64,000 nt of DNA from an uncultured Spirochaetaceae bacterium (GCA_964565375.1 CAZMEV010000001.1:1638-65637), one strand, 5' to 3'; positions 18,790 to 52,422 are shown, counted from the first letter of the stretch. Notes: a model not told the origin generated them from the sequence alone. A program made the numbers and translations.

Positions 18790-21733
18790 TGGCACCGTCG
18801 TTTGTTGAATGCGGCACCGACCTCACATGGGATCGCCGCCGCGGACAGCCATCGTAGAGAAGCTGCCAGATTGCTGGAAACAGTCCGAATGTCGTAATCA
18901 GGTTTGCAAGCGTTCCACCTGCAAGCACGAGTCCGATGAGGTGCGTCATCGCGGCCATGGGAGCCCCTCCGGTAAAAAGCAGGAGCGGAACCGCTGCGCC
19001 CAGCGTTGTTACTCCTGCGAGTATCAGATCCGGAGCCCGCTCGTTAATTGCCGTTTCGATTGGACTACCCTGTGCCTGAAACCCGATAATTACAGCGTTG
19101 TTTACGGCTATTCCGACGAATATCACCGCACCTACGATAACTCCTCCCTCCAGCGGGGTCCCTCCCATTACGAATGGAAGCAGAGCGAGCGCTATGGTAG
19201 GAGGTATGAACAGCAGCGTGGCCACCGGAATGCGAAGCGATTCCGATGCGGTAGCCACCATCAGGGGAATCGCGATCGCGGTGCCGGCAAGCAGAATCCA
19301 GAGTGCCCTGTAGTGTCGCAGTTGCCGTTGGTAACGGCGGTCCACCTGTACAGCGTATCCCGGGGGCATTTCGAAGGTATCAAGCTGAGTGTGGACTGCG
19401 CTCAGGGTTCGCTCGAGACTGCGAGTCGCATAATGAGCGGTGAGAAACGAGGCGCGCTGTCGATTGTAGCGGTCGATACGGGCAGGACGGCTTACCGTAC
19501 GAAAGTCTGCTACCGAACTCATCGGCACTGACGAACTCCTGTTGCGCATACGTAGCAGCTGCAGGGATCGAGGGTCGTCAATCTGTTCCCTGCGCGCTCT
19601 CAGACGCACGTCGGTTTCCCCGGTTTCGCTGTGCCATTTGAGGATAACCGGTCCGTGAAGTGCCCAGCGCAGCGTTTCTCCAACCGAGCGAGCTGAGAGT
19701 CCCGACGTAGCGAGGCGTTCACGATCCGGTGCTATAACAAGCGCCGGGGGGTCATTTTTGAAGTGTAGAATCACAGACTCCACCAGTGGCGTATGCTCGA
19801 TCCCATTCGCGGACCTCGCCTGCGTGAGCTTGCCGGCGAGTTCGCGGGCAAGAGTTCGTGTCTGTTCACGGTCCGGACCGGTAACCGCGAGTTCAATCGG
19901 TGTTCTGCCCGCAGGGCCCTGCCGCGGAGCGAGTATCTGAAGATTGACATCGACAAGTTCTGCATCCAGGCGCCGTACCGCAGAGATAAGCTGTTCGGAT
20001 ACCGACCGGCCGCTCGGCTCGATCGCAACTGTCGCACTGTCGCGTCGTGCGATCTGCTCGATACGCTGTACGCCGGTAAGTCGCCCGAGCCGGCCACTTA
20101 TTGCTGTCGTACGCCGATCGACCGACTGTACTGACGCGCCGCTTTCGAACTCTGCATGAACCCGGACGGTCCAATCGTTCGCCGGGGTTTCCGGATTTGA
20201 GCCGGCTCGGAACGCAAACACCGTAGCTGCAATAACCACGCAACAAGCGATCGTGAGGGACAGCAGCGGATGCTTCAAGGACATCGCTGAAAGGTGGCGG
20301 CGCACGGCAATGGGAGGAACGGTGGATCCACGAAAGAAATCACATCCGCGCACGAGCAGCGCAACAGGAAAAGAGACCGCGGCAAGTACTGTCGAGGCAC
20401 GCGCAAGACCCGTTGCGCCGTCCACAATGCCGGGTACGACCGCGAAGGGCAGAAGCGCAGCAACTGTCGTCAACACCGAGGTCGCAACAGCAGAAACCTG
20501 CGTGCGCCCGCCCGATCCGGTCAGCACTATTGTCGAATCGACCACGAGTCCACACGAAATCGCGAATCCCGCAAGCATGGCGGTGTCGAGCGGTGTTCCG
20601 AGGCGGGCGAACACAGCTGTTGCGGCGAGAAGGCTGACTGTCAGTACTATCGCGATTTCTCCTGCACGAGCTGCCGAACGGCAGGCGAGTGCGACGACTA
20701 CAAGGACGGACGATAAAGACGCTGCTAATGCAGCAAGAGTATGGGTAACCGCGGTGCGGGCATCTCCTCCGGCGTCGGCATGAAGCTCGACTTCGATGCC
20801 ATGCTCGGTTTGCCACCGCCTTCGAAGCACGTGAATATGCTCCGACACCGAAAGAAGATTCGCATCGCCGGTTGCGCTCACGCTGATCAGGACTGTCTGT
20901 TCGCCGTTAATCCTGCTGATCGTCTCCGGGTCGCGGGTGCCGGCACGAACCGAAGCAATGCGGCCGAGCGGCATTACACCCGATCCTGTCCTGATTTCAA
21001 CGGAAGACAACAGCTCGTAGCGATCGTAGCGTGCATCAATGAATATCGGTATTGCTCTCGAATGAGTGAAAAGCGTCCCACCGCTGCGGGCGGCATGGCG
21101 GTCACTCAATGTCTGAAAAAGGTCCCTCCATTCGAGCCTCGTTGCGGCAAGTTGATCGCGATGAATATCAATATGAACTTCCTCTACGGTGCCGCCGCTC
21201 ACGCGAGCCTGAGCCACGCCCTGCAGCCGCTCGAGATCGCTGCGAAGCTTCTCCTCGGCAAGCCCGCGCAGCTCAGGCAGCGAACGGTCCGGGGCACTTA
21301 TGGAAAGTACCGCAGCCGGAAATGAATCACTGTCTCCGCGAATGATCCTTGGACGCTGCACCGCTTCCGGTAGTCGATTATACAGCGCTGCCGCAACATC
21401 TCGAATCTCTGCGTATGCGTGGTCGACCGCTGTGTCGTCGCGAATTGCCGCGCGTACTCGCACACGTCCGGCCTCGGTGCTGCTTCGCAACGAGTCAATT
21501 CCCACAACCGATGCGAGTTTCGCCTCGAGGGGTTCGGTTATGCGCCGTTCGAGTTCGGCGGGTTCGACGCCTGAGTACCGAATTATGACTGAGATCACCC
21601 GATGACGTTGCTTTGGCTCCGCTCCGAACTCAAGATTAAAGGCGAGAAACAGCGAACCCGCTGTCAGGGCCGCGAAAAGCACCCGGCATCGAAACACCCG
21701 GGTCTCACGACCGCCGCTAACCATTGACTTCAC
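18773..21733 (-). CDS. RND-superfamily efflux permease, divergent second paralog of a tandem pair
   Basis: AcrB-like layout: N-terminal TM, porter-domain blocks (ITEPLEAKLASVVGIDSLRS) and 12-TM topology. The TM4 motif reads GLVVDSTIVLTGS instead of the usual VDDAIVVVEN. Its start overlaps the upstream RND gene by 17 nt. Confidence 0.8.
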   Translation of the reverse strand: MKSMVSGGRETRVFRCRVLFAALTAGSLFLAFNLEFGAEPKQRHRVISVIIRYSGVEPAELERRITEPLEAKLASVVGIDSLRSSTEAGRVRVRAAIRDDTAVDHAYAEIRDVAAALYNRLPEAVQRPRIIRGDSDSFPAAVLSISAPDRSLPELRGLAEEKLRSDLERLQGVAQARVSGGTVEEVHIDIHRDQLAATRLEWRDLFQTLSDRHAARSGGTLFTHSRAIPIFIDARYDRYELLSSVEIRTGSGVMPLGRIASVRAGTRDPETISRINGEQTVLISVSATGDANLLSVSEHIHVLRRRWQTEHGIEVELHADAGGDARTAVTHTLAALAASLSSVLVVVALACRSAARAGEIAIVLTVSLLAATAVFARLGTPLDTAMLAGFAISCGLVVDSTIVLTGSGGRTQVSAVATSVLTTVAALLPFAVVPGIVDGATGLARASTVLAAVSFPVALLVRGCDFFRGSTVPPIAVRRHLSAMSLKHPLLSLTIACCVVIAATVFAFRAGSNPETPANDWTVRVHAEFESGASVQSVDRRTTAISGRLGRLTGVQRIEQIARRDSATVAIEPSGRSVSEQLISAVRRLDAELVDVNLQILAPRQGPAGRTPIELAVTGPDREQTRTLARELAGKLTQARSANGIEHTPLVESVILHFKNDPPALVIAPDRERLATSGLSARSVGETLRWALHGPVILKWHSETGETDVRLRARREQIDDPRSLQLLRMRNRSSSVPMSSVADFRTVSRPARIDRYNRQRASFLTAHYATRSLERTLSAVHTQLDTFEMPPGYAVQVDRRYQRQLRHYRALWILLAGTAIAIPLMVATASESLRIPVATLLFIPPTIALALLPFVMGGTPLEGGVIVGAVIFVGIAVNNAVIIGFQAQGSPIETAINERAPDLILAGVTTLGAAVPLLLFTGGAPMAAMTHLIGLVLAGGTLANLITTFGLFPAIWQLLYDGCPRRRSHVRSVPHSTNDGATTGSS

Positions 21734-24700
21734 GTTTATGTCCTTGAGTTACTTCATTTCCGAGGTTCGACGGCATCGAGAATCTTCCCGCCACAAGAAA
21801 GGCGGCAGGTATGCCGAAAAGTGTCAGTGCCGTACCGACAGACAGTCCTGCAATAATGGTCAATGCAAGACCGCTCTGGTTCGAACGAATACCAGGATCG
21901 ATCGCAAGGGGCAGGAGCGCGACAACAGTCGTGGCTGTGGTCATGAGGATGGGGCGGGCTCGCCTGACTGCGCCTCGCATGACTGTGACGCGCAGGAACG
22001 CAGGTGACGGTGCATTGCGTTGATTCTGATTGTAACCGGCACGGTGTGAGCTGACGGTCAGCTGCCGATTCCAGGTTTCGATAAGTACGATGGCCCCATT
22101 GATGACCATACCGATAAGAACCAGACAGCCTATTGCACTCTGAAGAGTGAATGCGCGTCCGAGGGCGGCCGGTCCGAGTATTGAACCTGCCAGCGCGAAC
22201 GGAAGTACCGAGAGTACGATCGCCGCCTGCATGACACTCTCGAATTGCAGCATGAGAATCGCTGCGACAATCATCATTGCCAGGGCGAACACCGGCATAA
22301 GCGAGCGGGCCAGGGAGGCAACCGTGGCCGCTGTGAGGTCTTCCGCCCACGGGTGGCGGCTGGTTTCGATTCGGCCGGTGTCACCCTGTACATAGATCAC
22401 ATCCCGCCGCGCACGTCTCGTAAGCACCGAGCGACCGTGGTGTTCTTCCAGTTGCAGTGCTTCGCGCAGCGGAATACCGTCGTGCAGGAGTGTGATATCA
22501 GGTTGGTTTCGACGGTCAGACGAGCCGTAGAAGAGCCGAATACCAATTTCCTCTCCACTCTGAATGAGCGAACCGGCAGCTGTCCCCTCGACCGATGAAC
22601 GAAGGAGAACTGAGGCGTCGGTGAGAGTAATATTTCGATGGTTGAGCACGTTACGGTCGGGCGTGGCCAGGATAGTCGGACGATATTCGACTGGTGCCAG
22701 CGCAATTTCGGTATCTTCAGCTGAAGCGCGTTCGATTTCCCGGCGCAGCTTCCTCGCTCGTTCGAGCGCAAGCTCCGGAGAATCGCCATGAACCGCGATT
22801 CCCTGTCCGTCATTAAACCCGAGAAGCCGCTCGAGAGCACCTTCGGGCAGCTCAATACGCGTGTGGTTTTCAGCAGATCCAAGCTGCTTACGCAACCGCG
22901 GCAGTATCGAGCGGGCGGAAACGCCTTCCTCGAGACTCAGGTGTATCGAGACAGCATTCGAGTTTGTCGAAGGGTCGGAAAGAATTGCCCACTCCTCCTC
23001 CTCCTCCTCGCCTCCGACCCGAGTTACTGTGGTCTCGATGCCGGGCAGAGCGCTCAGTATCTCCGCAATGTAGACCCCGCGGCGCGCTGCGGCTTCAACC
23101 GAGAGGTCGGGCGGAACGTTCACTGTTACCAGTACTTCCCCGGTATCTACCGGCTCGAGAACTGCTACCTCCACGTCGCGGACAGCCCATACGCCGCTTA
23201 GTCCCGCAATCATCGCTGCTGCAGTCACGGTTGCAACCGGGGATCGAAGGCAACGGCGGAGAACGCTGGGATAAAGGCGACATGGTTGCGCGTTCGATAC
23301 ATGCCGGATGGAGGATGTAGGGCTGAAATACAGCGCCCCGGATAGTCGCGAGGATGTTGACTGCTTCCAGCGTTCAAGCTGCATGTAAAAAAGGGGAATT
23401 ACTGTAACCGAAGCGAGGTAGCTTGCGAGTAGTGCGCTTATCACCGCGGTGGCAAGATCGGCATAGAGAAGTCCTGCGATTCCCGGAAGGGCATAAAGTG
23501 GTAGAAAAACCGCCACAGTGGTCAGGGTGCCTGAGAAGGTAGCGCCTGACACCTCTGCGACCGCTCGTGCTGTACGGTCGATGTCAGGCGCCCCGCCGCC
23601 GTATTCATGCAGGTTTTCGACAACTACAATGCTGTTGTCGACTACCATTCCGATTCCGACGGCAATCCCGGCAAGTGCCATAGTATTAAGATTGACCTGG
23701 AGCATCGCGAGCAACGCGAATGAAAATCCGGAAGATACGGGAATCGATAGTGCCACGATTGAAGCGCTTCGCCATGAACGGAGAAAGAGAAGGAGCACTG
23801 CAAACGCGGCGATTGTCCCTGAGGCAGCAGAAACAATGATCTGCGAGACCGCAGTGCGAACTGCTGCCGAGCGGTCGTGCAGCAGCTGAAAACGGGCCGA
23901 GGAACCAAAGCTTCGTTCAAGTTCGGGGAGGGCCGCTGTGACGCGCCCTGCGACTTGTGCAGGGTTCGCATCGCTCGTGGCATATACATGAAGACCTATA
24001 GCCTCATCGCCGTCCACATGAAACGCGGAAGTTCGTGGTGCATAGCCTGGCTCTATACGTGCGAGGGAGGACAGCGGGATCGGCCCGGCCGGCGCCGTCG
24101 GCCCGGCCTCCTCGTTTTCAGCCGTCCCGCCGGCTCGGTCAACGGGGACATAAAGTTGCCCGAGCTCGCCGCGCGAACCCACCCTTGCATCTGTAGTAAC
24201 GAAGATCTCGAGATCACCTTGAACAACCGATCCGGCGGCATACTCGGTGTTTCCATCGAGCAGTACTGATCTGATCGAAGCAATGTCGAGCTTGAGTTCC
24301 TGAGCTCGCTTCTGATCGACCGTGACATGCACTTCTTCCACCGGTCCGCCCGAAACCACGACCGCGCCGACTCCGGAAATCTGTTGTATGTACGCTCGTA
24401 TTTCGCGCTCTGCGAGGCGACGAACGCGCGCAGCAGAGGCACCGGTAGGATGAAGTGCCACCCTAATTGCCGGACCTGACGATGGATCTGCTCGACGTAC
24501 AGCCGGTCTTGATACGGCGCTTGGAAGCGCGGGGTAGAGTCTGTCGACCGCCTCCCGGGTTGTCGAGGTGGCGTGGCTGCTCCCTGTACCCGGATCGAAC
24601 CTGAGTTGAACCGACACAGCGCCGGCCCGGGTTGTACTGCTGATTCCTCGCAGTCCCGGAATTCCTGACAGCCCCCGCTCGAGCGGAAGGGTAACAAGCT

Positions 24701-24884
24701 CACGCATCTGTTCGGCGGGCAATCCTTCATACCTCGCCGTCACGGTGATCACCGGGACATCAATTGTTGGAAGCAGCGAAATGCTTGACGGCGCAATGCC
24801 CGCTATCCCGGCACTTACAACAGAAAGCGTAATCGCAATTGTTCCTATTGGTCGCCGCAGCACCGCTGCGATCAGCGGTTTCAT
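21717..24884 (-). CDS. RND-superfamily efflux permease (AcrB/HAE-like), first of a tandem pair
   Basis: MKPLIAAVLRRPIGTIAITL..., LPTIDVPVITV, TM4 GIGMVVDNSIVVVENL, 1055 aa. Contains a (GAG)6 run encoding E6. Confidence 0.9.
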   Translation of the reverse strand: MKPLIAAVLRRPIGTIAITLSVVSAGIAGIAPSSISLLPTIDVPVITVTARYEGLPAEQMRELVTLPLERGLSGIPGLRGISSTTRAGAVSVQLRFDPGTGSSHATSTTREAVDRLYPALPSAVSRPAVRRADPSSGPAIRVALHPTGASAARVRRLAEREIRAYIQQISGVGAVVVSGGPVEEVHVTVDQKRAQELKLDIASIRSVLLDGNTEYAAGSVVQGDLEIFVTTDARVGSRGELGQLYVPVDRAGGTAENEEAGPTAPAGPIPLSSLARIEPGYAPRTSAFHVDGDEAIGLHVYATSDANPAQVAGRVTAALPELERSFGSSARFQLLHDRSAAVRTAVSQIIVSAASGTIAAFAVLLLFLRSWRSASIVALSIPVSSGFSFALLAMLQVNLNTMALAGIAVGIGMVVDNSIVVVENLHEYGGGAPDIDRTARAVAEVSGATFSGTLTTVAVFLPLYALPGIAGLLYADLATAVISALLASYLASVTVIPLFYMQLERWKQSTSSRLSGALYFSPTSSIRHVSNAQPCRLYPSVLRRCLRSPVATVTAAAMIAGLSGVWAVRDVEVAVLEPVDTGEVLVTVNVPPDLSVEAAARRGVYIAEILSALPGIETTVTRVGGEEEEEEWAILSDPSTNSNAVSIHLSLEEGVSARSILPRLRKQLGSAENHTRIELPEGALERLLGFNDGQGIAVHGDSPELALERARKLRREIERASAEDTEIALAPVEYRPTILATPDRNVLNHRNITLTDASVLLRSSVEGTAAGSLIQSGEEIGIRLFYGSSDRRNQPDITLLHDGIPLREALQLEEHHGRSVLTRRARRDVIYVQGDTGRIETSRHPWAEDLTAATVASLARSLMPVFALAMMIVAAILMLQFESVMQAAIVLSVLPFALAGSILGPAALGRAFTLQSAIGCLVLIGMVINGAIVLIETWNRQLTVSSHRAGYNQNQRNAPSPAFLRVTVMRGAVRRARPILMTTATTVVALLPLAIDPGIRSNQSGLALTIIAGLSVGTALTLFGIPAAFLVAGRFSMPSNLGNEVTQGHKREVNG

Positions 24885-26473
24885 CGTGCGGAAACCTTGT
24901 TCAGCCGAAGTCGCCAGTCTTGTTCAAACTCGTTGCCGTATGTGTCCGCCACAGAGTTGTCTATCGCAAGGGTTATGAGACCGGAGTGTTCCAGATCCTC
25001 GATCTCCGCATATATTCGGATAATCTGCTCGTCCTCGGCCGGCGCCGAGGCGGGTGCAGGCGTGAATGCGTTCTGTGTTCCAACCTCGCCGGCAACGACG
25101 TTTACCAGCGCGAGATCGGCGGCAATGTTCTCCACCGAAAACGTGACCCCATCCGCCACGTCAAAACCTCCGAAACGGGCCCCCTCTCCGGGGACCACAT
25201 ACAGATCAAAGAATCCCGTGTAGGTATCGCCGGCGTACCGGGATAGATCAAGCTCGTCATCATCTGTGATCGGGCCGATAATCTGTCCGGTCTCCGGATC
25301 TTCAAGAAAGAATGCACGCGCTACGCTCGGCGGGCGCGATGCCTTGCCGTCAACCCGGAACCGGGCGAATTGCTCGATCCGCCGCTCGACGCCGGCACCT
25401 GAACGAATGGCACCCTCCATGCGCAGTGTGTAGTCGCGAGCGAACTCAAAGCGCTCATCGGGTACTATCTCGAAAGAGGTGGAGGTCGAAGCAAACTCGG
25501 GGACCAGCGAGAAGGAATGCTCCGGATCAAACTCCAGTGCAGCAAGAACATCCTTTCGGTGCACCGGCATATCAAATTCCATCTCAATTCCCCAGAATCG
25601 CTCCCACCCCGGGGTAGGAGTGACTGTGGGTTCTCGCCTTTCAGCAGGATAGGCCGGGAGTGGGAAGAGTTCGCCTGCGTGGTCGTCGAGCCATTTTGAG
25701 GGGGCTCTTTCGTGAGACGCGCGCAGGGCGAGAAGCTGCGGCCCGGGACCGTTTAACCCGGCGTGAACGGTCATTTCGAAAGGTTCTGCCATTGTTCTGC
25801 CGTGTGCCGCTTTTAACCGCGTGCTGAGCTGAACAGTGTATTCCTGCTGAGGCGTGAGGGCTTCCATCGTATGAATTGTTGCGGTTCTATCGGCGTCTTC
25901 CCAGGACACCGAGAATGCGAAGGAGGGTGAGATACTGAGTGCATGGTAAAAGCTCGTCCTGTCGACACTCCTGTTAAACTCAAGATGGATTACGGCTTCT
26001 TCAATCGGCACATGCACTTTGCCGTCTGCCTGCTCCGGAACAGTCCGCATAACGGTCGGACGAGTCTCGGAGGCAAGGGTAGTGAACACGTGCTCGAAAT
26101 CCCGTACAAGCGCATTGCCGTACACATCCTGGGCATCCCCGGTGACAGTCATACGGTAGACGTTGCCACTATCGATTGCTGAGTCCGGCGTAAATCGCAT
26201 TGTTTTGCCGTTCCAGCGGAATCGCCCTGTAACCGGTATATCGTTCGCAGCGAGTGAAAAAGCGCTTTCTATACGAGGCCTGTCAGGTGTCGATGAAAAC
26301 CGCAATCGCACAGCGTCGACTTTCTCCGGATTGCTTACCCGTTGTTGCTCAGGAGACCACTCAACGACTTCAAGCGGGGCCATGTTCGACAGTCGACAAC
26401 CGGTGCACAGAGAGACTACAGTAATGGCGACGGCGATCCATCCTTTACGCGCAGTAATCAGCTTCGCCGTCAT
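24881..26473 (-). CDS. Lipoprotein with repeated bacterial Ig-like (SbsA/Big_5-type) domains
   Basis: Lipobox VSLCTGC. It has repeated units of the form LRFSSTPDRPRIESAFSLA...VTGRFRWNGKTMRFTPDSAIDSGNVYRMTVTGDAQDVYGNAL. It has 4-nt overlaps with both neighbours. Confidence 0.6.
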   Translation of the reverse strand: MTAKLITARKGWIAVAITVVSLCTGCRLSNMAPLEVVEWSPEQQRVSNPEKVDAVRLRFSSTPDRPRIESAFSLAANDIPVTGRFRWNGKTMRFTPDSAIDSGNVYRMTVTGDAQDVYGNALVRDFEHVFTTLASETRPTVMRTVPEQADGKVHVPIEEAVIHLEFNRSVDRTSFYHALSISPSFAFSVSWEDADRTATIHTMEALTPQQEYTVQLSTRLKAAHGRTMAEPFEMTVHAGLNGPGPQLLALRASHERAPSKWLDDHAGELFPLPAYPAERREPTVTPTPGWERFWGIEMEFDMPVHRKDVLAALEFDPEHSFSLVPEFASTSTSFEIVPDERFEFARDYTLRMEGAIRSGAGVERRIEQFARFRVDGKASRPPSVARAFFLEDPETGQIIGPITDDDELDLSRYAGDTYTGFFDLYVVPGEGARFGGFDVADGVTFSVENIAADLALVNVVAGEVGTQNAFTPAPASAPAEDEQIIRIYAEIEDLEHSGLITLAIDNSVADTYGNEFEQDWRLRLNKVSAR

Positions 26474-27948
26474 TGTTCAGGCTCCGTTCGAAGGTAGACG
26501 GTGAGCGGGTATTCGAGTCCTTCGGCTTCATCCGGGGCGCTTGCAGCCCCGGCGGGAATGCGGAGGCGATATATCGATGGCTTCCCGGGCGAAGCGGAGG
26601 GAATGAATCCTGCAAAGGAAATGCGCAGACGCGACCCCTCGTCGAGCCAGCGGATCTGTTCTCTATCGGGGCTTACCGCGCGTTCCGGAAGCAGCGCCCT
26701 GAGCTCCACCGCATCGATCAGACGGTCCCGGGCGTCCTTGGATATGTATGGATAGTCGAATTCGAACTGAACGGTGTTTGTCCCATCAGTCTGTCCGATC
26801 CCTACCTCGGTTGTTTCGTCGAGATCCGCATCCAGTGCCAGCGTGACGCCGGCCCCGCCTTCGGGATCTCCCCAGAAACTGCGTATGCCGGATACACGCT
26901 GACGGGCAGCAACCGGCTCAACGACAATGGAACGCTCTGCGACCAGATGATTTCCCGAAAGATCGCGGATACTATCCGGGACTGTGATTTTGATCGCGGA
27001 TTCTGCCTCAAGTACCTCGTCGAATCGCAGAAGGAACTCGGTCTCGCTCAATTGCTCCATCGCCGAGAGCACAGTCGGGGAAACGGTAACCGCATGCCGG
27101 ACTGAATCGAATCGCACCGCTTCCGAAAACCGGAGCACTATCACACCATCAGTACGGAATTCGGATGTTTCGAGAACTATCCCTTCTTTACGAATGGCAA
27201 ATTGGAAATCCTCGAGGTCAGGTGCTGACCGATCGTACTGCGTCACGAACGATCCGGAACGCTCGGCGGCAAGAGGTACTCCGTGAGCCGAATGGCCATC
27301 GTCGGACACCGACCACTGATATACGGTCAGCGGGTCCCACTGCTCGGTCGGCGCAACTTCGGCAACGGTATCCTCGTTGTGCCACGTTATCTCCACGTCG
27401 GTTTCCGGCGAAACTGATATCGCCTCTGCTGCGGACTCAGGATCAACCGGCTCACTGAAGTAAAGGCGGATCGGATCAAACACGCCGGTGTCGCCTCCCG
27501 ACTCAGGGGTGCTTGATACGAGAGACGGACGTATCGAGTCAGTTCCGTAGAAGAAGGGCACGTACGTGTCAACGTTATGCTCGAGATCCCGATAGTCGAT
27601 AACCGTACCTTCGACCCGCAACTCGTAGCGCAGCCCCGGATTCAGTCTCTCTACCGGAACGGCCTGAAAGCCATCGTCCGACCAGACAAAATCCACGTCG
27701 ACCTGTCCCGTTGACGATTCAATCCGGAATGCCTGTTCGGCGCTTTCCCTGTCTACCGGCCGTGAGAACGACGCTGCTATATGCGAATCTGTGGCGATAA
27801 TCTCGTTCGCCGAAGAGGGGTCGGTTTCGACTTCGAGGCGATGCAGGTCAACCAGATCGCACGAGACAAACAGAAAGCTCGTGACTGCGGTGATGCCGAG
27901 TGCGAGGCCAAGCAGCGGTTTGAAGGTGGCTGCATTATTCATGGACAT
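26470..27948 (-). CDS. Lipoprotein with repeated bacterial Ig-like (SbsA/Big_5-type) domains
   Basis: Lipobox FLFVSC. It has units such as IAASFSRPVDRESAEQAFRIES...FQAVPVERLNPGLRYELRVEG and IRLYFSEPVDPESAAEAISVSP...WDPLTVYQWSVSD. Confidence 0.6.
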   Translation of the reverse strand: MSMNNAATFKPLLGLALGITAVTSFLFVSCDLVDLHRLEVETDPSSANEIIATDSHIAASFSRPVDRESAEQAFRIESSTGQVDVDFVWSDDGFQAVPVERLNPGLRYELRVEGTVIDYRDLEHNVDTYVPFFYGTDSIRPSLVSSTPESGGDTGVFDPIRLYFSEPVDPESAAEAISVSPETDVEITWHNEDTVAEVAPTEQWDPLTVYQWSVSDDGHSAHGVPLAAERSGSFVTQYDRSAPDLEDFQFAIRKEGIVLETSEFRTDGVIVLRFSEAVRFDSVRHAVTVSPTVLSAMEQLSETEFLLRFDEVLEAESAIKITVPDSIRDLSGNHLVAERSIVVEPVAARQRVSGIRSFWGDPEGGAGVTLALDADLDETTEVGIGQTDGTNTVQFEFDYPYISKDARDRLIDAVELRALLPERAVSPDREQIRWLDEGSRLRISFAGFIPSASPGKPSIYRLRIPAGAASAPDEAEGLEYPLTVYLRTEPEQ

Positions 27949-29395
27949 AGTCCCCTTCCCGTATAAGTGGAGATGGTGTGTCGATTATGAGTTCCTCGCC
28001 GGACAGGCCGTCGGTGACTTCAATCGTCTGATCCGGACGTTCCATGCCGACCTGGACCTCGCTCAAATACGCCCGTTCACTCCGAATCAGAAAAATCGAT
28101 GCACGAGAGCCGTCGCGCCGTACAAGTGAGGAAAGCGGTACAACCGGTACCCTCCGATCGCTTCCGTACACAATCGAGCCATGTACAAACATTCCCGGGC
28201 GCAGCTTGCCGTCACTGTTGCCGAGCACCACCCTTACTGAAGCGCTTCCGCTTCTCGGGTCGACTGTGGGAGATACACGTTCGACTGCTCCGCCAAGACG
28301 TATGTCGTCGAGCGCCGGTACGACGATCTCTGCGTATTGGCCCGGGCTCAGCCGGCCCGCTTCAGATTCCCGGACCGGCAACAGGGCGTGGATCGGGGCT
28401 TCCTCGAATATCGACACTACCGGCTCACCCTCCCGAAGGCGTTCGCCGACCTCTACGTGACGTGCGCCGATTAATCCACCGGCCGGCGCTGTGATTGTCA
28501 GCTCCTCGAGTAGAAGTTCAACCGAGTCGAGCTCTGCTCGAGCGGATTCGAGCGCACTTCGAGAAACCGCTGCTTCAGCGGCTTCGATCTGTGTGTTCAG
28601 CCTCTGAAGCACATCGATGCGCTCTTCCCGGGAAGCAGGAAGTGAAAGCCCTGCGTCCAGGATTGCCCGATCGCTCAGTGCCACAGACTGTATTGCCGTT
28701 TCCTTAAGAAACGCCTCATAGGCACCACGCATGCGTACCTGTTCGGCCTCGAGCTCTCGAAGCTCTTCGGCGGTTACTCCTCCGACGTCCTTCAGTTGCC
28801 GGGCGTGTTCGATTCGTTCGCTACCGTGGTCAAGATCAAATTCGCGTATTTCCTGTTCGATCTCCCGAAGTTCAAGGCTCATAAGCTCGCGCAGCACGTT
28901 CTCGCGTGCTTTCGCGAGGCGTGCCTCTGCAAGCTCCACGCTGCTTTCCGCGCGTTCGATATCACTGACCGCCTGCCGATGGCGCACGTCGAGTTGCACG
29001 TTTTCAAGCTCGGCGACATGGCTGCCGGAAGAAACACGATCACCTTCCTCTACCGGCAGGGATGCGACCACGCCGTCCACTTCCGCGGTGACATCGGTCT
29101 TGCGCCGAATTACGATCGAACCGAAACTTTCAACCGTATCGCTCACCGTGACCACCGCCGGCCTGACCACATCCACCGTATGGGCAGCTTCCTGCTCAAC
29201 TGTCTGAGATTCTCTCCCGCATGCAGCAAGCGCCGTGAAGACTACCGCGGCGAGCCACGCAATCCGCCACGCGCCGATCACCAGCCGCGTGACCCAGGCG
29301 ATCCGCCACGGGGAGGTCACCAGCCGTGTGACTGACGCAATCCGCCACGCGCCGATCACCAGCCGCGTGATCCACGCCAGACGCCACGCGCTCAT
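27935..29395 (-). CDS. RND efflux periplasmic adaptor (membrane fusion protein), lipoprotein form, with a repeat-expanded signal peptide
   Basis: Lipoyl-like hairpins (VEEGDRVSSGSHVAELEN ... APAGGLIGARHVEVGERLREGEPVVSI), a long coiled-coil hairpin and a beta-barrel C-terminus. Lipobox FTALAAC. The ATG overlaps the TolC stop (ATGA). Confidence 0.85.
   Translation of the reverse strand: MSAWRLAWITRLVIGAWRIASVTRLVTSPWRIAWVTRLVIGAWRIAWLAAVVFTALAACGRESQTVEQEAAHTVDVVRPAVVTVSDTVESFGSIVIRRKTDVTAEVDGVVASLPVEEGDRVSSGSHVAELENVQLDVRHRQAVSDIERAESSVELAEARLAKARENVLRELMSLELREIEQEIREFDLDHGSERIEHARQLKDVGGVTAEELRELEAEQVRMRGAYEAFLKETAIQSVALSDRAILDAGLSLPASREERIDVLQRLNTQIEAAEAAVSRSALESARAELDSVELLLEELTITAPAGGLIGARHVEVGERLREGEPVVSIFEEAPIHALLPVRESEAGRLSPGQYAEIVVPALDDIRLGGAVERVSPTVDPRSGSASVRVVLGNSDGKLRPGMFVHGSIVYGSDRRVPVVPLSSLVRRDGSRASIFLIRSERAYLSEVQVGMERPDQTIEVTDGLSGEELIIDTPSPLIREGDYVHE
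29255..29392 (-). repeat. 39-bp in-frame tandem repeat, 3.5 copies, encoding AWRIAWVTRLVIG-type units at the extreme N-terminus of the adaptor
   Basis: Units at 29255-29293, 29294-29332 and 29333-29371, plus a partial unit at 29372-29392. Units 1 and 3 are nearly identical. Confidence 0.9.
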
Positions 29396-30867
29396 AGCTC
29401 CTCCTGGCGAAGGCCTGTCAGCTCTTCTATACGTCGCCGACGCGTCATTGTGTCGAATCCGACCTCGAGGAAGTTCAGCTCAGCCTCGAGAAGTGACTTC
29501 GAGGCTGTGAGTAGATCCAGCGGGGTCGCGCGGCCGAGCTCCGACTCGGCTTCAAGGATTCTCAGTCGTCGGCGCGCCAGTCCGCGGCGGTGCCGTGCTG
29601 CCTCCCAGTGGTCCACCGATAACGCGAAGAGCGAAAGTTCCCGTCTGATTGTGAAATACAGCTCTTCTTCATAGCGCTCACGGGAGATCAGATGCTGCTC
29701 GAGTTCAAGTAATGCCTCGGTCCGATCGACCTCGCCGGTGATCCGGTTCAATGGTTCGGTTGCGACCTGTGCACCACGTCGGACCTCACCGTCGGCGCTC
29801 GCTCCTGCGGAGAATCCAGCGGAAGCCTGGGAGTCGCTCTGCCATGAGAACTCTATGCCCACCGAGTACCGCGGGTCCCGCAACGGCAGTGTGTCGGCGG
29901 CAAGGGATACGTCGAACGAGGCAGCGATTTCGGGAATTGCGCTCAGTCGCGCTTGCTTCACGTTCTCTCGTGATTGTACGGCAGTGAGAGAACGCCGGCG
30001 AAACTCGAGGTCATTGCGGGTCGCGTGGTCCATGAGTGTTGATGGATCGGCGGTAATGGGGTGGGGAGGTGATTCGGCGGTAAATCCGTCGCTGATAACC
30101 GGCATTTGCCCGGGCGGCAGCCGCAGCATCTGCATGAGCTCGAAACCCGCGCGTTGCTGCTCGAGGCGGTCGGCGCGCAGCTGATGTCTCATTTCAGCGA
30201 CTGAGACCCTGGCATCGTGTACATCGAGTTCGGTAATCCGGCCGAGTGCGAACTGCTCCTCTGCGATGACCAGAGCCCGCCCGGATACCTTCACCGCTTC
30301 CTCCCGTGCACGGACGCGCGCGTCGAACAGCTGAAGCAGGACAATCTTCTCCCAGGCCTCGCGAGCCGTCTGTCTTCGCGTAGTCTCGAGTTCGCGGCGC
30401 CGCAGTATCAGCTCCGCCTCGCGGTATCGTCGCGCCCGTAACAACGCACCGCCGTCGTAGAGTGTCTGGCGAAGCCCGACGGACAGCCGCCTCGAACGTC
30501 TGTCCGGCGACAGTGGCGTAACCGCGGTATCGGTCGCATAGGATAGCGAGAGCGCTGGAAGGTACGCCCGCCGCTCACGAATAAAACGGGAGGTCTGCAG
30601 CTCGGTTTCCATTGCGGCAAACCGAAGTCCCTCCGAGACATCTATCGCGCGCGCTATTGCCTCGTCGGTCGAAAGTGCCGGGCCCGAGGCTCGCCGTTCA
30701 CCGGAACCCGGCTCAATGGCGACGGCACCAGCCCCAGTGGCGACGGCACCAGCCCCTGTCGCGGGCCCATGTGTCGGACCAGCCCCCGTCTCAAGCCCGA
30801 ACACCGCGTACGTGCATGAGAGAATGAGAACTGCTTCCAGCGAAAGGCGAAACACCACGTCGGTCAA
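29392..30867 (-). CDS. TolC-family outer-membrane efflux protein
   Basis: Two OEP-type repeats with long helical segments (LSLSYATDTAV..., RQTLYDGGALLRARRYREAEL). The signal-like N-terminus is followed by a Gly/Ala/Thr repeat. Confidence 0.85.
   Translation of the reverse strand: MTDVVFRLSLEAVLILSCTYAVFGLETGAGPTHGPATGAGAVATGAGAVAIEPGSGERRASGPALSTDEAIARAIDVSEGLRFAAMETELQTSRFIRERRAYLPALSLSYATDTAVTPLSPDRRSRRLSVGLRQTLYDGGALLRARRYREAELILRRRELETTRRQTAREAWEKIVLLQLFDARVRAREEAVKVSGRALVIAEEQFALGRITELDVHDARVSVAEMRHQLRADRLEQQRAGFELMQMLRLPPGQMPVISDGFTAESPPHPITADPSTLMDHATRNDLEFRRRSLTAVQSRENVKQARLSAIPEIAASFDVSLAADTLPLRDPRYSVGIEFSWQSDSQASAGFSAGASADGEVRRGAQVATEPLNRITGEVDRTEALLELEQHLISRERYEEELYFTIRRELSLFALSVDHWEAARHRRGLARRRLRILEAESELGRATPLDLLTASKSLLEAELNFLEVGFDTMTRRRRIEELTGLRQEEL
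30717..30758 (-). repeat. 21-bp in-frame tandem duplication in the TolC N-terminal linker
   Basis: tggcgacggcaccagccccag / tggcgacggcaccagcccctg, 20 of 21 identical. It encodes ATGAGAV twice. Confidence 0.85.
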
Positions 30868-31476
30868 TTACGTACGCTCCTGGTTCTCTTCGAGCGCGTC
30901 GAAGAGCGCTGTGAAGGTCTCGACAACGATGCGGTTGTATACAGCCGGCGAGACAATCGTCTCGGAACTCTCGCCGCGGTACACCGCCTGCACAATCACT
31001 GATCCGCTTTCATGTCTGTTCCCGGTGGCGACGAGCTCGGCGGTAGCCGCTATGCCGCGCCGTTCGCGAATACCGTCTACATAGCTCTGCTCGCGAACAT
31101 CGACCTTGATCACAAAATCGGTATACAACGAATCGGATCCGTCGGCCGGTGAGGAGGAACTGCGTGTGGAGAACGTCGGTCGGTCGGCGATTACCTCGTG
31201 TAATGCCATGTATGCGAGAAGTTCCGGGTCGTAGGCCGGGTCTCCTGCGATATGATCGCTGTTGGTACGTGCCCGGAGACCTGAGATCACAAGCGCCTGC
31301 TGCGACCTGTCGTTGTGGTCGGTGGACGCATACCCGGGCTGCTCCCGGATTCCCTGGTTCACCACTGCGCTCACCTCCGCACGGTCCATACTCACGCACC
31401 CGCTTATCAGAAACACCGACAACACGGTACCTGCGGCGCCGGCGGTCGCCGGATTCCGCCTGCAGCCCCACCTCAC
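30868..31476 (-). CDS. Hypothetical lipoprotein
   Basis: Lipobox VFLISGC. It has a 4-nt overlap with the upstream TPR gene and abuts the TolC start. I recognised no family motif. Confidence 0.5.
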   Translation of the reverse strand: MRWGCRRNPATAGAAGTVLSVFLISGCVSMDRAEVSAVVNQGIREQPGYASTDHNDRSQQALVISGLRARTNSDHIAGDPAYDPELLAYMALHEVIADRPTFSTRSSSSPADGSDSLYTDFVIKVDVREQSYVDGIRERRGIAATAELVATGNRHESGSVIVQAVYRGESSETIVSPAVYNRIVVETFTALFDALEENQERT

Positions 31477-32174
31477 AGTCTGCCCCCGTCGATGCGCCTG
31501 CGAAGGTCATTCGCCGCGTCGTATACCGGACCGCCTGTCTCTCCGGAAAGCTTCGTTGCCGTGAGCGCCCGCCGTTCCGCACGATCTGTGAGGCCGAGCC
31601 GGTAGTAGATTCTCGCCGCGTCCAGATGAAGGCGTGCGATCTCATCGAGCCGTTCGATGCCAAGCTGGTATGCACCGAGCGCGCCGGGCACCTCTCCATC
31701 GGCCTCGAGGAGTGTTCCGAGCGCGTGATACAGCCGTACATCGCCCGGGTCTTCAGCGATCTGCGCTTCAAGTACGCGCCGCGCCTCCTCAATTGCATCA
31801 GGGTCAACTGCGGCTGCCGCTACGCGTGAGTACCAAAGGGCTCCCGGCCTGTGTTCCGGGGCAAGATCGAGTACCCGTCCGAGCGCCTCTTTCGCTGCAT
31901 CTAGATTGCCGTCTATGGCGTAGAGTCGCCCTGCAAGCAGGTGGGCTTCAGGCCAGGTTCGAAGGCGCTCGCGTAACCGGTTGGCCCGTGCCAGTGCTTC
32001 CGAAGGGTGTTCTGCGGCAAGCGCATGCGCGGCGGCAAGCTCATGCCGGTTTTCCGCATTGACCGACTGTCGACACGCGATGAGCGAAGTGACGGCGACG
32101 TGCACGATAACAAGCCACCAGAGCCGCATAAAAACGGGATGCGACAAACCATCAACCTTGATCCTCTTCTTCAT
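31473..32174 (-). CDS. Tetratricopeptide-repeat lipoprotein, first gene of the envelope operon
   Basis: TPR-like helix pairs (AHLLAGRLYAIDGNLDAAKEALGRVLDLAPEH; RLYHALGTLLEADGEVPGALGAYQLGI; AARIYYRLGLTDRAERRAL). Lipobox VTSLIAC. I chose ATG 32174, preceded by GGAGGA, over the ORF-track start at 32258. Confidence 0.65.
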   Translation of the reverse strand: MKKRIKVDGLSHPVFMRLWWLVIVHVAVTSLIACRQSVNAENRHELAAAHALAAEHPSEALARANRLRERLRTWPEAHLLAGRLYAIDGNLDAAKEALGRVLDLAPEHRPGALWYSRVAAAAVDPDAIEEARRVLEAQIAEDPGDVRLYHALGTLLEADGEVPGALGAYQLGIERLDEIARLHLDAARIYYRLGLTDRAERRALTATKLSGETGGPVYDAANDLRRRIDGGRL

Positions 32175-32317
32175 AGTTCCTCCGGCATGAGTCACTACGG
32201 GTCGAACTGCCGGTCTGATTGCAAAATTTTTTGAAAAAGTTGAAATCGCCACGGACATGCGGTGCGTAGGTATGGGTGAGAAGCAATACCTCGAGAAGAG
32301 TATAGGAGGATAGGTTG
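32175..32317. promoter_or_regulatory. Divergent control region between the envelope operon and the giant ORF
   Basis: 143 bp. It contains the only A/T-rich block in the area (GCAAAATTTTTTGAAAAAGTTGAAATCG, 32221-32248), with TTGAAA at 32231 and 32240. I could not resolve a convincing -10 hexamer. Confidence 0.35.
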
Positions 32318-47901: not shown

Positions 47902-48195
47902 TCAGACTTCGGTTATTTCCGCCTCAAATTGAAAGAGGCGGATTCCTTCGTTGGGGAATCGTCCCTTCACCCGCCTGACAGCCGAAACAATCCGTGTCCC
48001 ACTTTCGGCATCTGTATAGAAAAGAAAGAGAATATTCTCCTCAGGCCAGATATGGTCACCGCGTCGTTCGCCGCTGTTACCCACGCCGTGAACACCGGGT
48101 ATCCGTGTGTGATACCCGGCAACGTTTTCTCGAGTGAACTCATCGAGAAGATCCTCCTCGATGGCCCGATTCGCAATGACTTCAGTGCGGGTCAT
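47902..48195 (-). CDS. Small PII-fold-like protein co-translated with the RND pump (transporter-associated)
   Basis: 97 aa. It has a beta-alpha-beta x2-like pattern (TEVIANRAIEEDLLDEF...GYHTRIPGVHGVG...ILFLFYTD...IVSAVRRV). Its start overlaps the RND stop by 4 nt. The family assignment is inferred from pattern and context only. Confidence 0.45.
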   Translation of the reverse strand: MTRTEVIANRAIEEDLLDEFTRENVAGYHTRIPGVHGVGNSGERRGDHIWPEENILFLFYTDAESGTRIVSAVRRVKGRFPNEGIRLFQFEAEITEV

Positions 48196-52411: not shown

Positions 52412-52422
52412 TATATCTCCGT

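What the first reader, a model, noticed from the sequence alone, without database searches (positions are those of the whole stretch)
24881..27948. Two paralogous multi-Ig (SbsA/Big_5-like) lipoproteins embedded inside an RND operon
The 492-aa and 530-aa products both start with lipoprotein signal peptides. Both consist of several ~90-100-aa units with the pattern hydrophobic-x-FS-x-P-hydrophobic-D...S...AF-x-hydrophobic...F-x-P...L-x-P-G-x-x-Y-x-hydrophobic-x-V...D-x-x-GN-x-L. That is the signature I associate with SbsA-type bacterial Ig-like domains, normally found on S-layer and surface proteins.

Their position between the adaptor and permease genes, with 4-nt overlaps, implies stoichiometric co-production with the pump. 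They could be periplasmic scaffolds, substrate-capture modules or outer-membrane tethers.
Basis: inference. Interest (0 to 1): 0.6.

Follow-up and report, generated by a model that had tools for sequence, protein, structure and literature searches.

The report
Ig-lipoprotein pair of a spirochaete pump
Two related lipid-anchored proteins built from four Ig-like domains are fixed parts of an unusual spirochaete-only envelope pump. That pump nearly always sits next to a giant exported protein with swappable cell-wall-cutting ends, so it looks like an undescribed machine rather than an ordinary drug pump.

Summary
ORFs 27948..26470 (IgA, 492 aa) and 26473..24881 (IgB, 530 aa) are paralogous lipoproteins made of Big_5/SbsA-type Ig-like domains. 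They lie between an MFP gene and two RND permease genes, with ATGA overlaps.

- **Lipid anchor:** the lipobox Cys is kept in 95% (IgA) and 98% (IgB) of relatives.
- **Fold:** an AlphaFold model of IgA shows four beta-sandwich domains.
- **Family:** it is large (405 representatives at E<=1e-30). So far it is seen only in Spirochaetota, and always in the order OMF-MFP-IgA-IgB-RND1-RND2.

The operon is linked to the adjacent 3948-aa Sec-signal protein (32315..44161). A reciprocal metagenome search seeded with that protein found the Ig/RND operon directly upstream in 66 of 67 informative loci.

The giant's last ~280 aa is exchangeable: an intact M23 peptidase in 21 of 46 homologues, and a papain-like Cys/His module in the window. 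It co-varies with the downstream exported protein independently of the core, which is a toxin/immunity-like pattern.

Best reading: IgA and IgB are periplasmic accessory subunits of a specialised trans-envelope RND machine that handles, and probably exports, the giant protein. Physical association, localisation and substrate are inferred, not shown. No description was found in the searchable literature.

The parts
26470..27948 (-). IgA: 492-aa lipoprotein with four Big_5/Ig-like beta-sandwich domains (residues about 36-134, 138-237, 245-343, 350-488)
   Evidence: Pfam Big_5 E=4e-27. AlphaFold model pLDDT 78.4. Foldseek hits to SbsC, SbsB and LdtMt2 Ig domains. Family of 405 representatives at E<=1e-30.
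27859..27861 (-). Codon of the IgA lipobox cysteine (C30, LFVS-C), directly followed by the conserved motif C-x-[LIVF]-[IVL]-[DSN]-[LFI]
   Evidence: Cys kept in 95% of 127 family members. Motif listing.
24881..26473 (-). IgB: 530-aa paralogous lipoprotein with four Big_5-like units. FS-x-PV occurs at residues 59-63, 166-170 and 300-304. D-x-x-GN occurs at 116-120, 358-362 and 510-514. The C-terminal motif W-x-x-RLN-x-V is conserved.
   Evidence: Pfam Big_5 E=5.5e-29. Alignments. hhalign to IgA E=1.1e-28. The AlphaFold model is poor (pLDDT 55.5).
26396..26398 (-). Codon of the IgB lipobox cysteine (C26, CTG-C)
   Evidence: Cys kept in 98% of 62 orthologues.
27935..29395 (-). Membrane fusion protein (486 aa, lipobox LAAC) with an insertion of about 170 residues between the lipoyl half-motifs, taken to be a long helical hairpin (inferred)
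   Evidence: Pfam HlyD_D23 and HlyD_3; TIGR01730 166.5 bits against a cut-off of 94.9. The orthologue in L099 carries a weak HH_EMRA hit.
29392..30867 (-). TolC-like outer membrane factor (491 aa)
   Evidence: Pfam OEP E=1.3e-24.
30868..31476 (-). Small conserved lipoprotein (202 aa, lipobox ISGC), no known domain
   Evidence: No Pfam or NCBIfam hit. Orthologues in L001, L007, L020, L023, L024, L099 and L100.
31473..32258 (-). TPR lipoprotein (lipobox LIAC), first gene of the operon
   Evidence: TPR Pfam hits. Conserved at this position.
21717..24884 (-). RND permease 1 (1055 aa); start overlaps the IgB stop (ATGA)
   Evidence: ACR_tran E=3e-140. TM4 Asp invariant in 36/36. Junction.
18773..21733 (-). 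RND permease 2 (986 aa), a divergent paralogue of RND1
   Evidence: ACR_tran E=6e-78. Always paired with RND1. TM4 Asp invariant in 36/36.
32315..44161 (+). Giant exported protein (3948 aa). It has an N-terminal signal peptide and conserved blocks at about aa 20-440, 620-830 and 2750-3650, the last with a Gly-rich stretch. The C-terminal ~280 aa is an exchangeable module, here with a papain-like Q..GC..H..AN pattern.
   Evidence: Adjacency to the operon in 66/67 informative loci. Signal peptides. Conservation. C-terminal classes. No Pfam, NCBIfam or PDB match for the window protein.
44173..44916 (+). Downstream 247-aa protein with a predicted signal peptide, starting 11 nt after the giant's stop. 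Candidate cognate partner (immunity-like) of the giant's C-terminal module.
   Evidence: ORF. No Pfam hit. Downstream exported proteins co-vary with the C-terminal class in related loci. The window's copy is not detectably related to the class-0 partners.

Best explanation
IgA and IgB are paralogous periplasmic lipoproteins. Each is a rod of four Ig-like (Big_5) beta-sandwich domains, and the first strand follows the lipidated cysteine with no tether. They have no conserved catalytic or metal-binding residues.

They are obligate, co-translated accessory subunits of a specialised tripartite RND machine. So far it is seen only in Spirochaetota. Its parts are:
- a TolC-like outer membrane factor;
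- a long-hairpin MFP;
- two RND paralogues;
- a TPR lipoprotein and a small lipoprotein.

This machine is genetically locked to a giant Sec-exported protein. That protein's C-terminal peptidase module (intact M23, or papain-like Cys/His) is swapped together with a downstream exported partner protein.

The most likely mechanism is as follows. The Ig rods stand beside the RND/MFP palisade and act as adaptors. They couple the pump to the giant protein in the periplasm and guide it to the MFP-OMF duct for PMF-driven release.

Shown: fold, lipobox, paralogy, strict synteny and coupling, linkage to the giant protein, and modularity of its C-terminus.
Inferred: physical association, which membrane holds the lipid anchors, and that the giant protein is the cargo.
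For: - Fold and paralogy.
- Lipobox Cys kept in 95% and 98% of relatives, with a conserved post-Cys strand motif.
- No conserved His/Met/Cys cluster.
- The order OMF-MFP-IgA-IgB-RND1-RND2 is kept in every locus with enough flank. This covers 11 genome loci (all Spirochaetota), 8 sampled family representatives and more than 40 metagenome loci.
- The IgB stop lies 5-12 nt from the RND1 start in 45 of 47 loci, and overlaps as ATGA in the window.
- Reciprocal linkage to the giant protein: 66 of 67 informative loci, in two different arrangements (tandem and divergent).
- All components, including the giant's N-terminus, share one phylogeny (distance-matrix r>=0.95).
- The same window holds a canonical OMF-MFP-RND operon without Ig genes. 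Its RND scores 818 bits on ACR_tran against 469 and 263 bits here, so this system is a divergent specialised one.
- The giant has Sec-type signal peptides. It has variable C-termini with intact M23 motifs in 20-21 of 46 or a conserved Q/C/H/N pattern.
- The C-terminal class co-varies with the downstream exported protein but not with core relatedness.
Against: - No direct evidence of protein-protein contact, and no complex prediction was possible.
- No RND pump is known to move a protein. A 300-400 kDa cargo through a TolC-like duct from the periplasm would be unprecedented.
- Two IgA-seeded loci (L024, L100) have the full Ig/RND operon but no giant gene within 10 kb. One giant homologue (L026) has no operon within 5.6 kb upstream. 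The Ig proteins are therefore tied to the pump more tightly than to the giant.
- The downstream 'partner' proteins match no known immunity family, and the window's copy is unrelated to the class-0 partners.
- The partial-correlation hints (IgA with the giant's N-terminus 0.41, IgB with RND1 0.40) may only reflect rate classes.
- The IgB model is unreliable.
Confidence: 0.5

Rival explanations
1. IgA and IgB are pump-intrinsic structural braces of a small-molecule or lipid efflux pump. For example, they could stabilise a tall trans-envelope assembly in the wide, flagella-containing spirochaete periplasm. The neighbouring giant gene would be functionally separate, or only co-regulated.
For: The Ig pair is kept with the pump even where no giant gene lies within 10 kb (L024, L100). 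All known RND tripartite pumps move small molecules (established knowledge). Both RND paralogues keep an invariant TM4 Asp, as expected for working proton-driven permeases. The LdtMt2 lipoprotein uses similar Ig domains as a periplasmic spacer.
Against: Linkage to the giant holds in 66/67 loci, survives a rearrangement between tandem and divergent layouts, and shows matched phylogeny. This is hard to explain without a shared function. The organism already has a canonical RND pump without Ig genes.
Confidence: 0.22
2. The machine controls the giant protein rather than exporting it. By analogy with FtsEX-EnvC, FtsEX-PcsB, FtsEX-CwlO and FtsEX-RipC, a membrane transporter transmits conformational changes to a long helical periplasmic protein that ends in a peptidoglycan hydrolase (LytM/M23 or Cys-peptidase). 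The Ig lipoproteins would be the coupling arms, and the downstream protein a regulator or inhibitor.
For: The giant is largely helical by composition. It ends in M23 or a Cys/His peptidase module. These are the same two kinds of module as in EnvC and in PcsB/CwlO/RipC (PMC7668044; 10.1101/432344; established knowledge). Its N-terminal block co-evolves with the operon.
Against: An OMF and a long-hairpin MFP are always present and would be unnecessary for periplasmic control. The M23 modules keep the H-x3-D and H-x-H metal ligands, unlike the degenerate EnvC LytM domain. Frequent swapping of the C-terminus together with its partner gene among close relatives looks like diversifying selection, not housekeeping.
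Confidence: 0.15
3. IgA and IgB are periplasmic substrate- or metal-binding chaperones that feed the pump, like CusF or CopC.
For: IgA has a weak Pfam CopC hit (E=4.7e-5, 24.8 bits against a cut-off of 23.3). One domain superposes on CopC with TM-score 0.70-0.76.
Against: No conserved His, Met or Cys apart from the lipobox Cys in 127 IgA and 62 IgB sequences. The CopC similarity is at the level of the shared Ig-like fold. The RNDs are no closer to the CusA/CzcA family than to the multidrug families.
Confidence: 0.03
4. IgA and IgB are surface-exposed S-layer-like or adhesin lipoproteins that merely share a transcript with the pump.
For: Big_5 domains are typical of S-layer and surface proteins. 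The top Foldseek hits are SbsC and SbsB. Many spirochaete lipoproteins are surface-exposed (established knowledge).
Against: There are no SLH or other S-layer anchoring domains. The position between MFP and RND is strictly fixed, with translational coupling across deep divergence. Both paralogues are always present together.
Confidence: 0.05

Closest known systems
Tripartite RND efflux pumps, especially MdtABC-TolC with two RND paralogues (MdtB/MdtC)
   Same: OMF (PF02321), MFP (TIGR01730 above its cut-off) and RND permeases (PF00873) encoded together. The two adjacent RND paralogues suggest a hetero-oligomer.
   Different: Two Ig lipoproteins sit between the MFP and RND genes, and a TPR lipoprotein and a small lipoprotein are also encoded. 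The operon is linked to a giant exported protein. The RNDs score far below the NCBIfam multidrug-permease cut-offs (366 and 258 bits against 1250). TM4 has a single Asp.
MmpS4/5-MmpL4/5 of mycobacteria (operon-encoded accessory protein of an RND transporter)
   Same: A small membrane-anchored accessory protein with an extracytoplasmic domain, encoded next to its RND partner and needed for function and oligomerisation (PMC12122801).
   Different: There is no sequence relationship. MmpS is anchored by a transmembrane helix and has one domain. IgA and IgB are lipid-anchored, have four domains and come as a pair. This system also has its own MFP and OMF.
BesABC of Borrelia burgdorferi (the characterised spirochaete RND pump)
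   Same: A spirochaete OMF-MFP-RND system (PMC2279261).
   Different: BesA lacks the alpha-hairpin (PMC3807786), whereas the MFP here has an insertion of about 170 residues at that position (inferred hairpin). BesABC has one RND and no Ig lipoproteins.
LdtMt2 (LppS) lipoprotein Ig-like domains A and B, and S-layer proteins SbsC and SbsB
   Same: The same Ig-like domain type. LdtMt2 is the only solved relative found by sequence (E about 1e-3) and a top structural hit. It is also a lipoprotein that uses the domains as a periplasmic spacer.
   Different: IgA and IgB have no catalytic domain and no S-layer anchoring or self-assembly module, and they sit in a pump operon.
FtsEX-EnvC / FtsEX-PcsB hydrolase control systems
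   Same: A membrane transporter paired with a long helical extracytoplasmic protein that ends in an M23/LytM or a Cys-peptidase domain (PMC7668044; 10.1101/432344).
   Different: The transporter here is an RND, not an ABC. An OMF and an MFP are present. The partner is 10 times larger. Its M23 is catalytically intact and its C-terminus is polymorphic.
Polymorphic toxin systems and type 1 secretion of giant proteins
   Same: A giant protein with a conserved body, an exchangeable C-terminal enzymatic module and a co-varying downstream gene. MFP and OMF genes lie next to a giant protein gene, as in T1SS loci.
   Different: There is no ABC transporter, no RTX repeats and no C-terminal secretion signal. 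The protein has an N-terminal Sec signal instead. The partner proteins match no known immunity family. Toxicity is untested.

Membership tests
Big_5 / SbsA-type bacterial Ig-like domain (Pfam PF13205) | Significant match to the Pfam model above the gathering score | tested here: met
   IgA 95.4 bits and IgB 101.4 bits against a cut-off of 23.6.
Big_5 / SbsA-type bacterial Ig-like domain (Pfam PF13205) | Ig-like beta-sandwich fold | tested here: met
   The AlphaFold model of IgA has four beta-sandwich domains (pLDDT 78.4). Foldseek hits SbsC (E=2.4e-9), LdtMt2 Ig domains (1e-8) and SbsB (6e-8). The IgB model is too poor to judge beyond domain 1.
Bacterial lipoprotein | Signal peptide ending in a lipobox with an invariant Cys | tested here: met
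   C30 is kept in 95% of 127 IgA relatives and C26 in 98% of 62 IgB relatives. No dedicated predictor (such as SpLip or SignalP) was available, and lipidation itself is untested.
S-layer protein (SbsA/SbsB/SbsC type) | Cell-wall anchoring module (SLH or equivalent) and a self-assembling lattice | tested here: not met
   No SLH or other anchoring domain in Pfam; there is a lipobox instead. Lattice formation cannot be tested here.
Tripartite RND efflux system | Co-encoded OMF, MFP and RND permease | tested here: met
   PF02321, TIGR01730 (166.5 against 94.9 bits) and PF00873.
Tripartite RND efflux system | Membership of a characterised RND subfamily (HAE1 multidrug or HME metal), by curated cut-off | tested here: not met
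   The best NCBIfam scores are 366 bits (RND1) and 258 bits (RND2) against a cut-off of 1250 for NF033617. TIGR00915 scores 238 against 940, and TIGR00914 scores 205 against 701.
MdtABC-like heteromeric RND | Two adjacent RND paralogues forming a hetero-trimer | tested here: inconclusive
   Two paralogues are always adjacent and their distances are tightly correlated (partial r 0.78). Hetero-oligomerisation is untested, and the MdtB/MdtC equivalog cut-offs are not reached.
CopC/CusF-type periplasmic metallochaperone | Conserved metal-ligand residues (His/Met) | tested here: not met
   No conserved His, Met or Cys beyond the lipobox Cys. The CopC hit is marginal (24.8 against 23.3 bits).
MmpS-type RND accessory protein | Sequence homology to MmpS and an N-terminal transmembrane anchor | tested here: not met
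   There is no MmpS Pfam hit, and the anchor is a lipobox. The analogy is functional only.
Type 1 secretion system | ABC transporter partner and a substrate with a C-terminal signal or RTX repeats | tested here: not met
   There is no ABC gene in the cluster. The giant has no RTX or other Pfam domain. It has an N-terminal Sec signal.
Polymorphic toxin / immunity system (applies to the giant neighbour) | Conserved body, variable C-terminal enzymatic domain and a co-varying downstream gene | tested here: met
   There are at least 5 C-terminal classes. M23 is found in 21/46 and the papain-like pattern in 16/46. Class-to-partner association: CT0-DN0 11/14, CT1-DN1 6/9, CT3-DN3 3/3, CT4-DN4 3/3. 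The class is independent of core identity (median 0.54 against 0.53).
Polymorphic toxin / immunity system (applies to the giant neighbour) | Toxicity of the C-terminal domain and neutralisation by the downstream protein | not testable with these tools
   This needs expression and competition assays. The partner proteins match no known immunity family.

The most novel reading that the evidence does not exclude
The cluster encodes a previously unrecognised two-step protein secretion route. A 300-400 kDa polymorphic peptidoglycan-peptidase toxin first enters the periplasm through Sec. A proton-driven hetero-oligomeric RND pump with a long-hairpin MFP and a TolC-like duct then expels it across the outer membrane. 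The lipid-anchored Ig rods IgA and IgB (with the TPR lipoprotein) act as the periplasmic receptor or chaperone that holds the cargo and feeds it in. The only loose precedent for an RND-superfamily protein acting on a polypeptide is SecDF.
Probability: 0.3. Interest if true: 0.9.

Novelty: new variant of a known kind. Interest (0 to 1): 0.7.

Why it matters
RND tripartite pumps are textbook small-molecule exporters with a three-part plan. Known accessories are tiny (AcrZ), are chaperones (CusF), or are the mycobacterial MmpS proteins.

Here a large, deeply conserved clade of spirochaete systems carries extra fixed parts:
- two four-domain Ig lipoproteins;
- a second permease;
- two more lipoproteins.

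The clade has 405 representatives at 50% clustering with E<=1e-30. It is almost always wired to a giant exported protein with swappable cell-wall-peptidase ends.

If the giant protein is the cargo, this would be the first RND-driven protein or toxin export system. It would also be a likely weapon in the very dense spirochaete communities of termite guts.

If the giant is not the cargo, the system is still a new architecture for building or bracing a trans-envelope pump in the flagella-filled spirochaete periplasm. It also gives a first functional context to a giant protein family that has no annotation at all.

Tried and rejected
- **CopC/metallochaperone reading:** rejected. The Pfam hit is marginal and no ligand residues are conserved.
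- **S-layer reading:** rejected. There is no anchoring domain, the proteins have a lipobox, and their operon position is fixed.
- **T1SS reading:** rejected. There is no ABC transporter and no RTX repeats.
- **Word-indexed homologue searches:** these gave only 4-7 hits and wrongly suggested a tiny family. The exhaustive profile search corrected this.
- **IgB structure model:** poor (pLDDT 55.5), so it was used only for domain 1.
- **PDB sequence searches:** nothing beyond the LdtMt2 Ig domains for IgA. Nothing at all for IgB, the giant protein or its C-terminus.
- **Pfam/NCBIfam on the window's giant:** nothing.
- **Class-0 downstream partner HMM:** it does not match the window's downstream ORF (E=0.22).
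- **Pfam on downstream partners:** only scattered SH3_3, LRR_5, WD40 and NlpE hits, and no immunity family.
- **Promoter/terminator scan:** no better than shuffles.
- **Cluster-member names:** gave no taxonomy.
- **Mirror-tree partial correlations:** suggestive only, and confounded by rate classes.
- **Literature searches:** searches on Big_5 with RND, on Treponema Ig-like efflux, and on spirochaete polymorphic toxins with RND found no description of this system.
- **First giant N-terminus alignment:** too divergent for the metagenome scan. A 4-sequence alignment worked.

Full report
**1. Observation**

The region holds two tail-to-head ORFs on the minus strand. I call them IgA (27948..26470, 492 aa) and IgB (26473..24881, 530 aa).

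- Pfam Big_5 (PF13205, the SbsA-type bacterial Ig-like domain) matches both far above its gathering score. IgA: E=4e-27, three stretches. IgB: E=5.5e-29, two stretches. NCBIfam has no model for either protein.
- They are paralogues. BLASTP gives 27% identity over the first 227 residues, E=1e-13. A profile-profile comparison aligns them colinearly from the lipobox through three domains (probability 99.8%, E=1.1e-28, 343 columns).
- The IgA/IgB and IgB/RND1 junctions are ATGA overlaps. The MFP/IgA junction is a 14-nt overlap preceded by a GGGAAGGGGA stretch.

**2. Anatomy**

- An AlphaFold model of IgA, built from a four-sequence alignment, has mean pLDDT 78.4. It shows four beta-sandwich domains at about residues 36-134, 138-237, 245-343 and 350-488. 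The low pTM (0.44) means the relative domain orientation is not defined.
- Foldseek against the PDB returns the S-layer proteins SbsC and SbsB, the two Ig-like domains of the mycobacterial lipoprotein LdtMt2, and cadherin-type rods. CopC matches as a single domain only.
- By sequence, the only solved relatives are the LdtMt2 Ig domains.
- The IgB model is poor (pLDDT 55.5) apart from domain 1. However, the repeat motifs recur four times along IgB in a 62-sequence alignment: FS-x-PV at 59-63, 166-170 and 300-304, and D-x-x-GN at 116-120, 358-362 and 510-514.
- The lipobox cysteine is kept in 95% of 127 IgA-family sequences and 98% of 62 IgB-family sequences.
- In both paralogues the Cys is followed at once by a short conserved hydrophobic motif. 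This is C-x-[LIVF]-[IVL]-[DSN]-[LFI] in IgA, and CRL.N or CD[IL]LR in IgB. The first domain therefore sits directly on the membrane with no tether.
- The +2 residue is variable, so sorting cannot be read from it.
- No His, Met or Cys other than the lipobox Cys is conserved. This argues against catalysis or metal binding.

**3. Size and range of the family**

- Word-indexed searches found only 4-7 relatives.
- The exhaustive profile search found 6674 proteins at E<=1e-3 and 405 at E<=1e-30. Of the best 150, 123 are 430-520 aa long and match end to end. Their median identity to the window protein is 25%.
- A scan of one genome per prokaryotic species returned 11 loci, all from Spirochaetota: Spirochaetales, Spirochaetaceae, Treponema, Treponemataceae and Spirochaetia. 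That scan used only two peptide patterns, so 'only in spirochaetes' means 'so far'.

**4. Co-conservation with the pump**

- The window operon reads: TPR lipoprotein (32258..31473), small lipoprotein (31476..30868), OMF (30867..29392), MFP (29395..27935), IgA, IgB, RND1 (24884..21717), RND2 (21733..18773).
- In every related locus with enough flank, the order OMF-MFP-IgA-IgB-RND1-RND2 is the same, down to 24-30% identity. This holds for the genome loci, for the contigs of homologues and of eight sampled family representatives, and for the metagenome loci.
- The TPR and small lipoprotein genes precede the OMF gene wherever the flank reaches them.
- The IgB stop lies 5-12 nt from the RND1 start in 45 of 47 loci.
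- The same window also has a canonical OMF-MFP-RND operon (53847..48192) with a 306-aa MFP, one RND and no Ig genes. Its RND scores 818 bits on ACR_tran, against 469 and 263 bits for RND1 and RND2.
- RND1 and RND2 fall far below every curated NCBIfam RND cut-off, yet each keeps an invariant TM4 Asp (36/36).
- The MFP has about 170 residues inserted between its lipoyl half-motifs (Pfam coordinates). An orthologue carries a weak EmrA-hairpin hit. I infer a long hairpin like that of EmrA, which is 127 Å (PMC4158417, abstract). Borrelia BesA, by contrast, has none (PMC3807786).

**5. The unexpected neighbour**

- The divergent 3948-aa ORF (32315..44161) has homologues next to the operon in most IgA- or IgB-seeded loci. 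It lies either divergently upstream as here, or in tandem after RND2.
- As a reciprocal test, I scanned metagenomes with an alignment of its N-terminal 430 residues. Of 74 loci, 67 have upstream sequence, and 66 of those carry the RND/Ig operon immediately upstream.
  - 43 loci show the complete MFP-IgA-IgB-RND1-RND2-giant string.
  - L025 and L040 have the window's divergent layout.
  - L026 is the single exception.
- In the other direction, two operon loci (L024, L100) have no giant gene within 10 kb.
- Pairwise distance matrices of IgA, IgB, RND1, RND2 and the giant's N-terminus over 35 loci all correlate at r>=0.95. The cluster has therefore evolved as one unit.

**6. What the giant protein is**

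- It has no Pfam, NCBIfam or PDB match in the window copy.
- All homologues start with a type-I signal peptide.
- Three blocks are conserved: about aa 20-440, 620-830 and 2750-3650. The last includes a Gly-rich stretch.
- The final ~280 residues are not conserved and fall into at least five unrelated classes.
  - 21 of 46 carry a Pfam M23 peptidase domain (best E=1.3e-16). 20 have both H-x3-D and H-x-H motifs intact.
  - 16 of 46, including the window, share a module with conserved Q, G-C, H and A-N positions in the order of papain-like cysteine peptidases. This assignment is by pattern only.
- The gene immediately downstream almost always encodes an exported protein or lipoprotein, and its family tracks the C-terminal class: CT0-DN0 11/14, CT1-DN1 6/9, CT3-DN3 3/3, CT4-DN4 3/3.
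- C-terminal class is independent of relatedness of the conserved core. Median core identity is 0.54 for same-class pairs and 0.53 for different-class pairs, and the nearest core neighbour shares the class in only 22 of 45 cases.
- This is the architecture of polymorphic toxin/immunity systems. However, toxicity is untested, the partner proteins match no known immunity family, and the window's downstream ORF (44173..44916) is unrelated to the class-0 partners.

**7. How it most likely works**

Shown:
- IgA and IgB are lipid-anchored four-domain Ig rods without catalytic signatures.
- They are produced in fixed order and tight coupling with the MFP and two RND paralogues.
- They are never seen apart from the pump.
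- The pump is divergent, specialised and linked to a giant Sec-exported protein with exchangeable peptidoglycan-peptidase ends.

Inferred:
- The rods stand beside the RND/MFP assembly. Four Ig domains would give roughly 15 nm, comparable to a long-hairpin MFP.
- They act as adaptors between the pump and the giant protein.
- That protein is most likely released through the MFP-OMF duct.

Weak hints for a division of labour are the partial correlations of IgB with RND1 (0.40) and of IgA with the giant's N-terminus (0.41). These may only reflect rate classes.

Rivals:
- The Ig pair simply braces a small-molecule pump. This is supported by L024 and L100.
- The machine regulates rather than exports the giant hydrolase, as FtsEX does for EnvC and PcsB (PMC7668044; 10.1101/432344). 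The ever-present OMF, the intact M23 sites and the cassette swapping speak against it.
- A metallochaperone role, or a surface-adhesin role. Both are poorly supported.

**8. Comparison and novelty**

- The parts are known kinds: Big_5 lipoproteins and an OMF/MFP/RND pump. The two-permease layout recalls MdtABC.
- The nearest functional analogue of an operon-encoded RND accessory is MmpS-MmpL (PMC12122801), but there is no homology to it.
- Searches of the open literature found no description of Ig-like lipoproteins in RND operons, or of this cluster. The library excludes most subscription journals.
- I class it as a new variant of a known kind. There is a substantial chance (about 0.3) that it is a categorically new protein-export route.

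**Limits**
- No complex prediction was possible.
- No localisation predictor for spirochaete lipoproteins was available.
- The IgB model is poor.
- The taxonomy of the metagenome loci is unknown.

Noticed in passing
window 32315-44161 (+): A 3948-aa ORF with a signal peptide and no known domain, linked to the Ig/RND operon in 66/67 informative loci. Its C-terminal ~280 aa is exchangeable: intact M23 peptidase in 21/46 homologues, and a papain-like Q/C/H/N pattern in the window. It co-varies with the downstream gene.
   Followed up: yes
window 44173-44916 (+): A 247-aa ORF with a predicted signal peptide starts 11 nt after the giant's stop. It has no Pfam hit and is not related to the partner family found downstream of other class-0 giants.
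   Followed up: partly
window 29255-29391: A 39-nt tandem repeat (3.5 copies, 77% matches) at the 5' end of the MFP gene. It encodes a repeated WRIAWVTRLVIGA-like N-terminal extension that orthologues lack, so the true start may lie further downstream, just before the LAAC lipobox.
   Followed up: partly
window 30717-30763: A 21-nt tandem repeat (2.2 copies, 92% matches) in the N-terminal region of the OMF gene, encoding repeated TGAGAVA.
   Followed up: no
window 48192-53847 (-): A second, canonical tripartite RND operon: OMF 474 aa, short MFP 306 aa, and one RND of 1099 aa that scores 818 bits on ACR_tran. It has no Ig lipoproteins. It was used as an internal contrast.
   Followed up: partly
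L026 1-5800: The only giant-protein homologue with upstream sequence (5.6 kb) that has no Ig/RND operon next to it. The upstream genes were not identified.
   Followed up: no
L024 19567-21527 and L100 14592-16043: Two Ig/RND operons with no giant gene within 10 kb. In L024 the operon is followed by DUF3419 and a Patched/MMPL-like RND gene. In L100 it is followed by an unannotated 483-aa gene on the opposite strand.
   Followed up: no
loci L025-L098, genes downstream of the giant homologues: The variable downstream exported proteins include bacterial SH3_3 domains (5), BspA-type LRR_5 (3), one WD40 propeller and one NlpE-like protein. Most have no known domain.
   Followed up: partly
window 21717-24884 and 18773-21733 (RND1 D416/N929, RND2 D399/N878): Both RND paralogues keep a single invariant TM4 Asp (36/36). 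They also have an invariant Asn in the motif that, from memory, corresponds to TM10, where AcrB has Lys. This suggests a proton relay unlike that of AcrB.
   Followed up: partly
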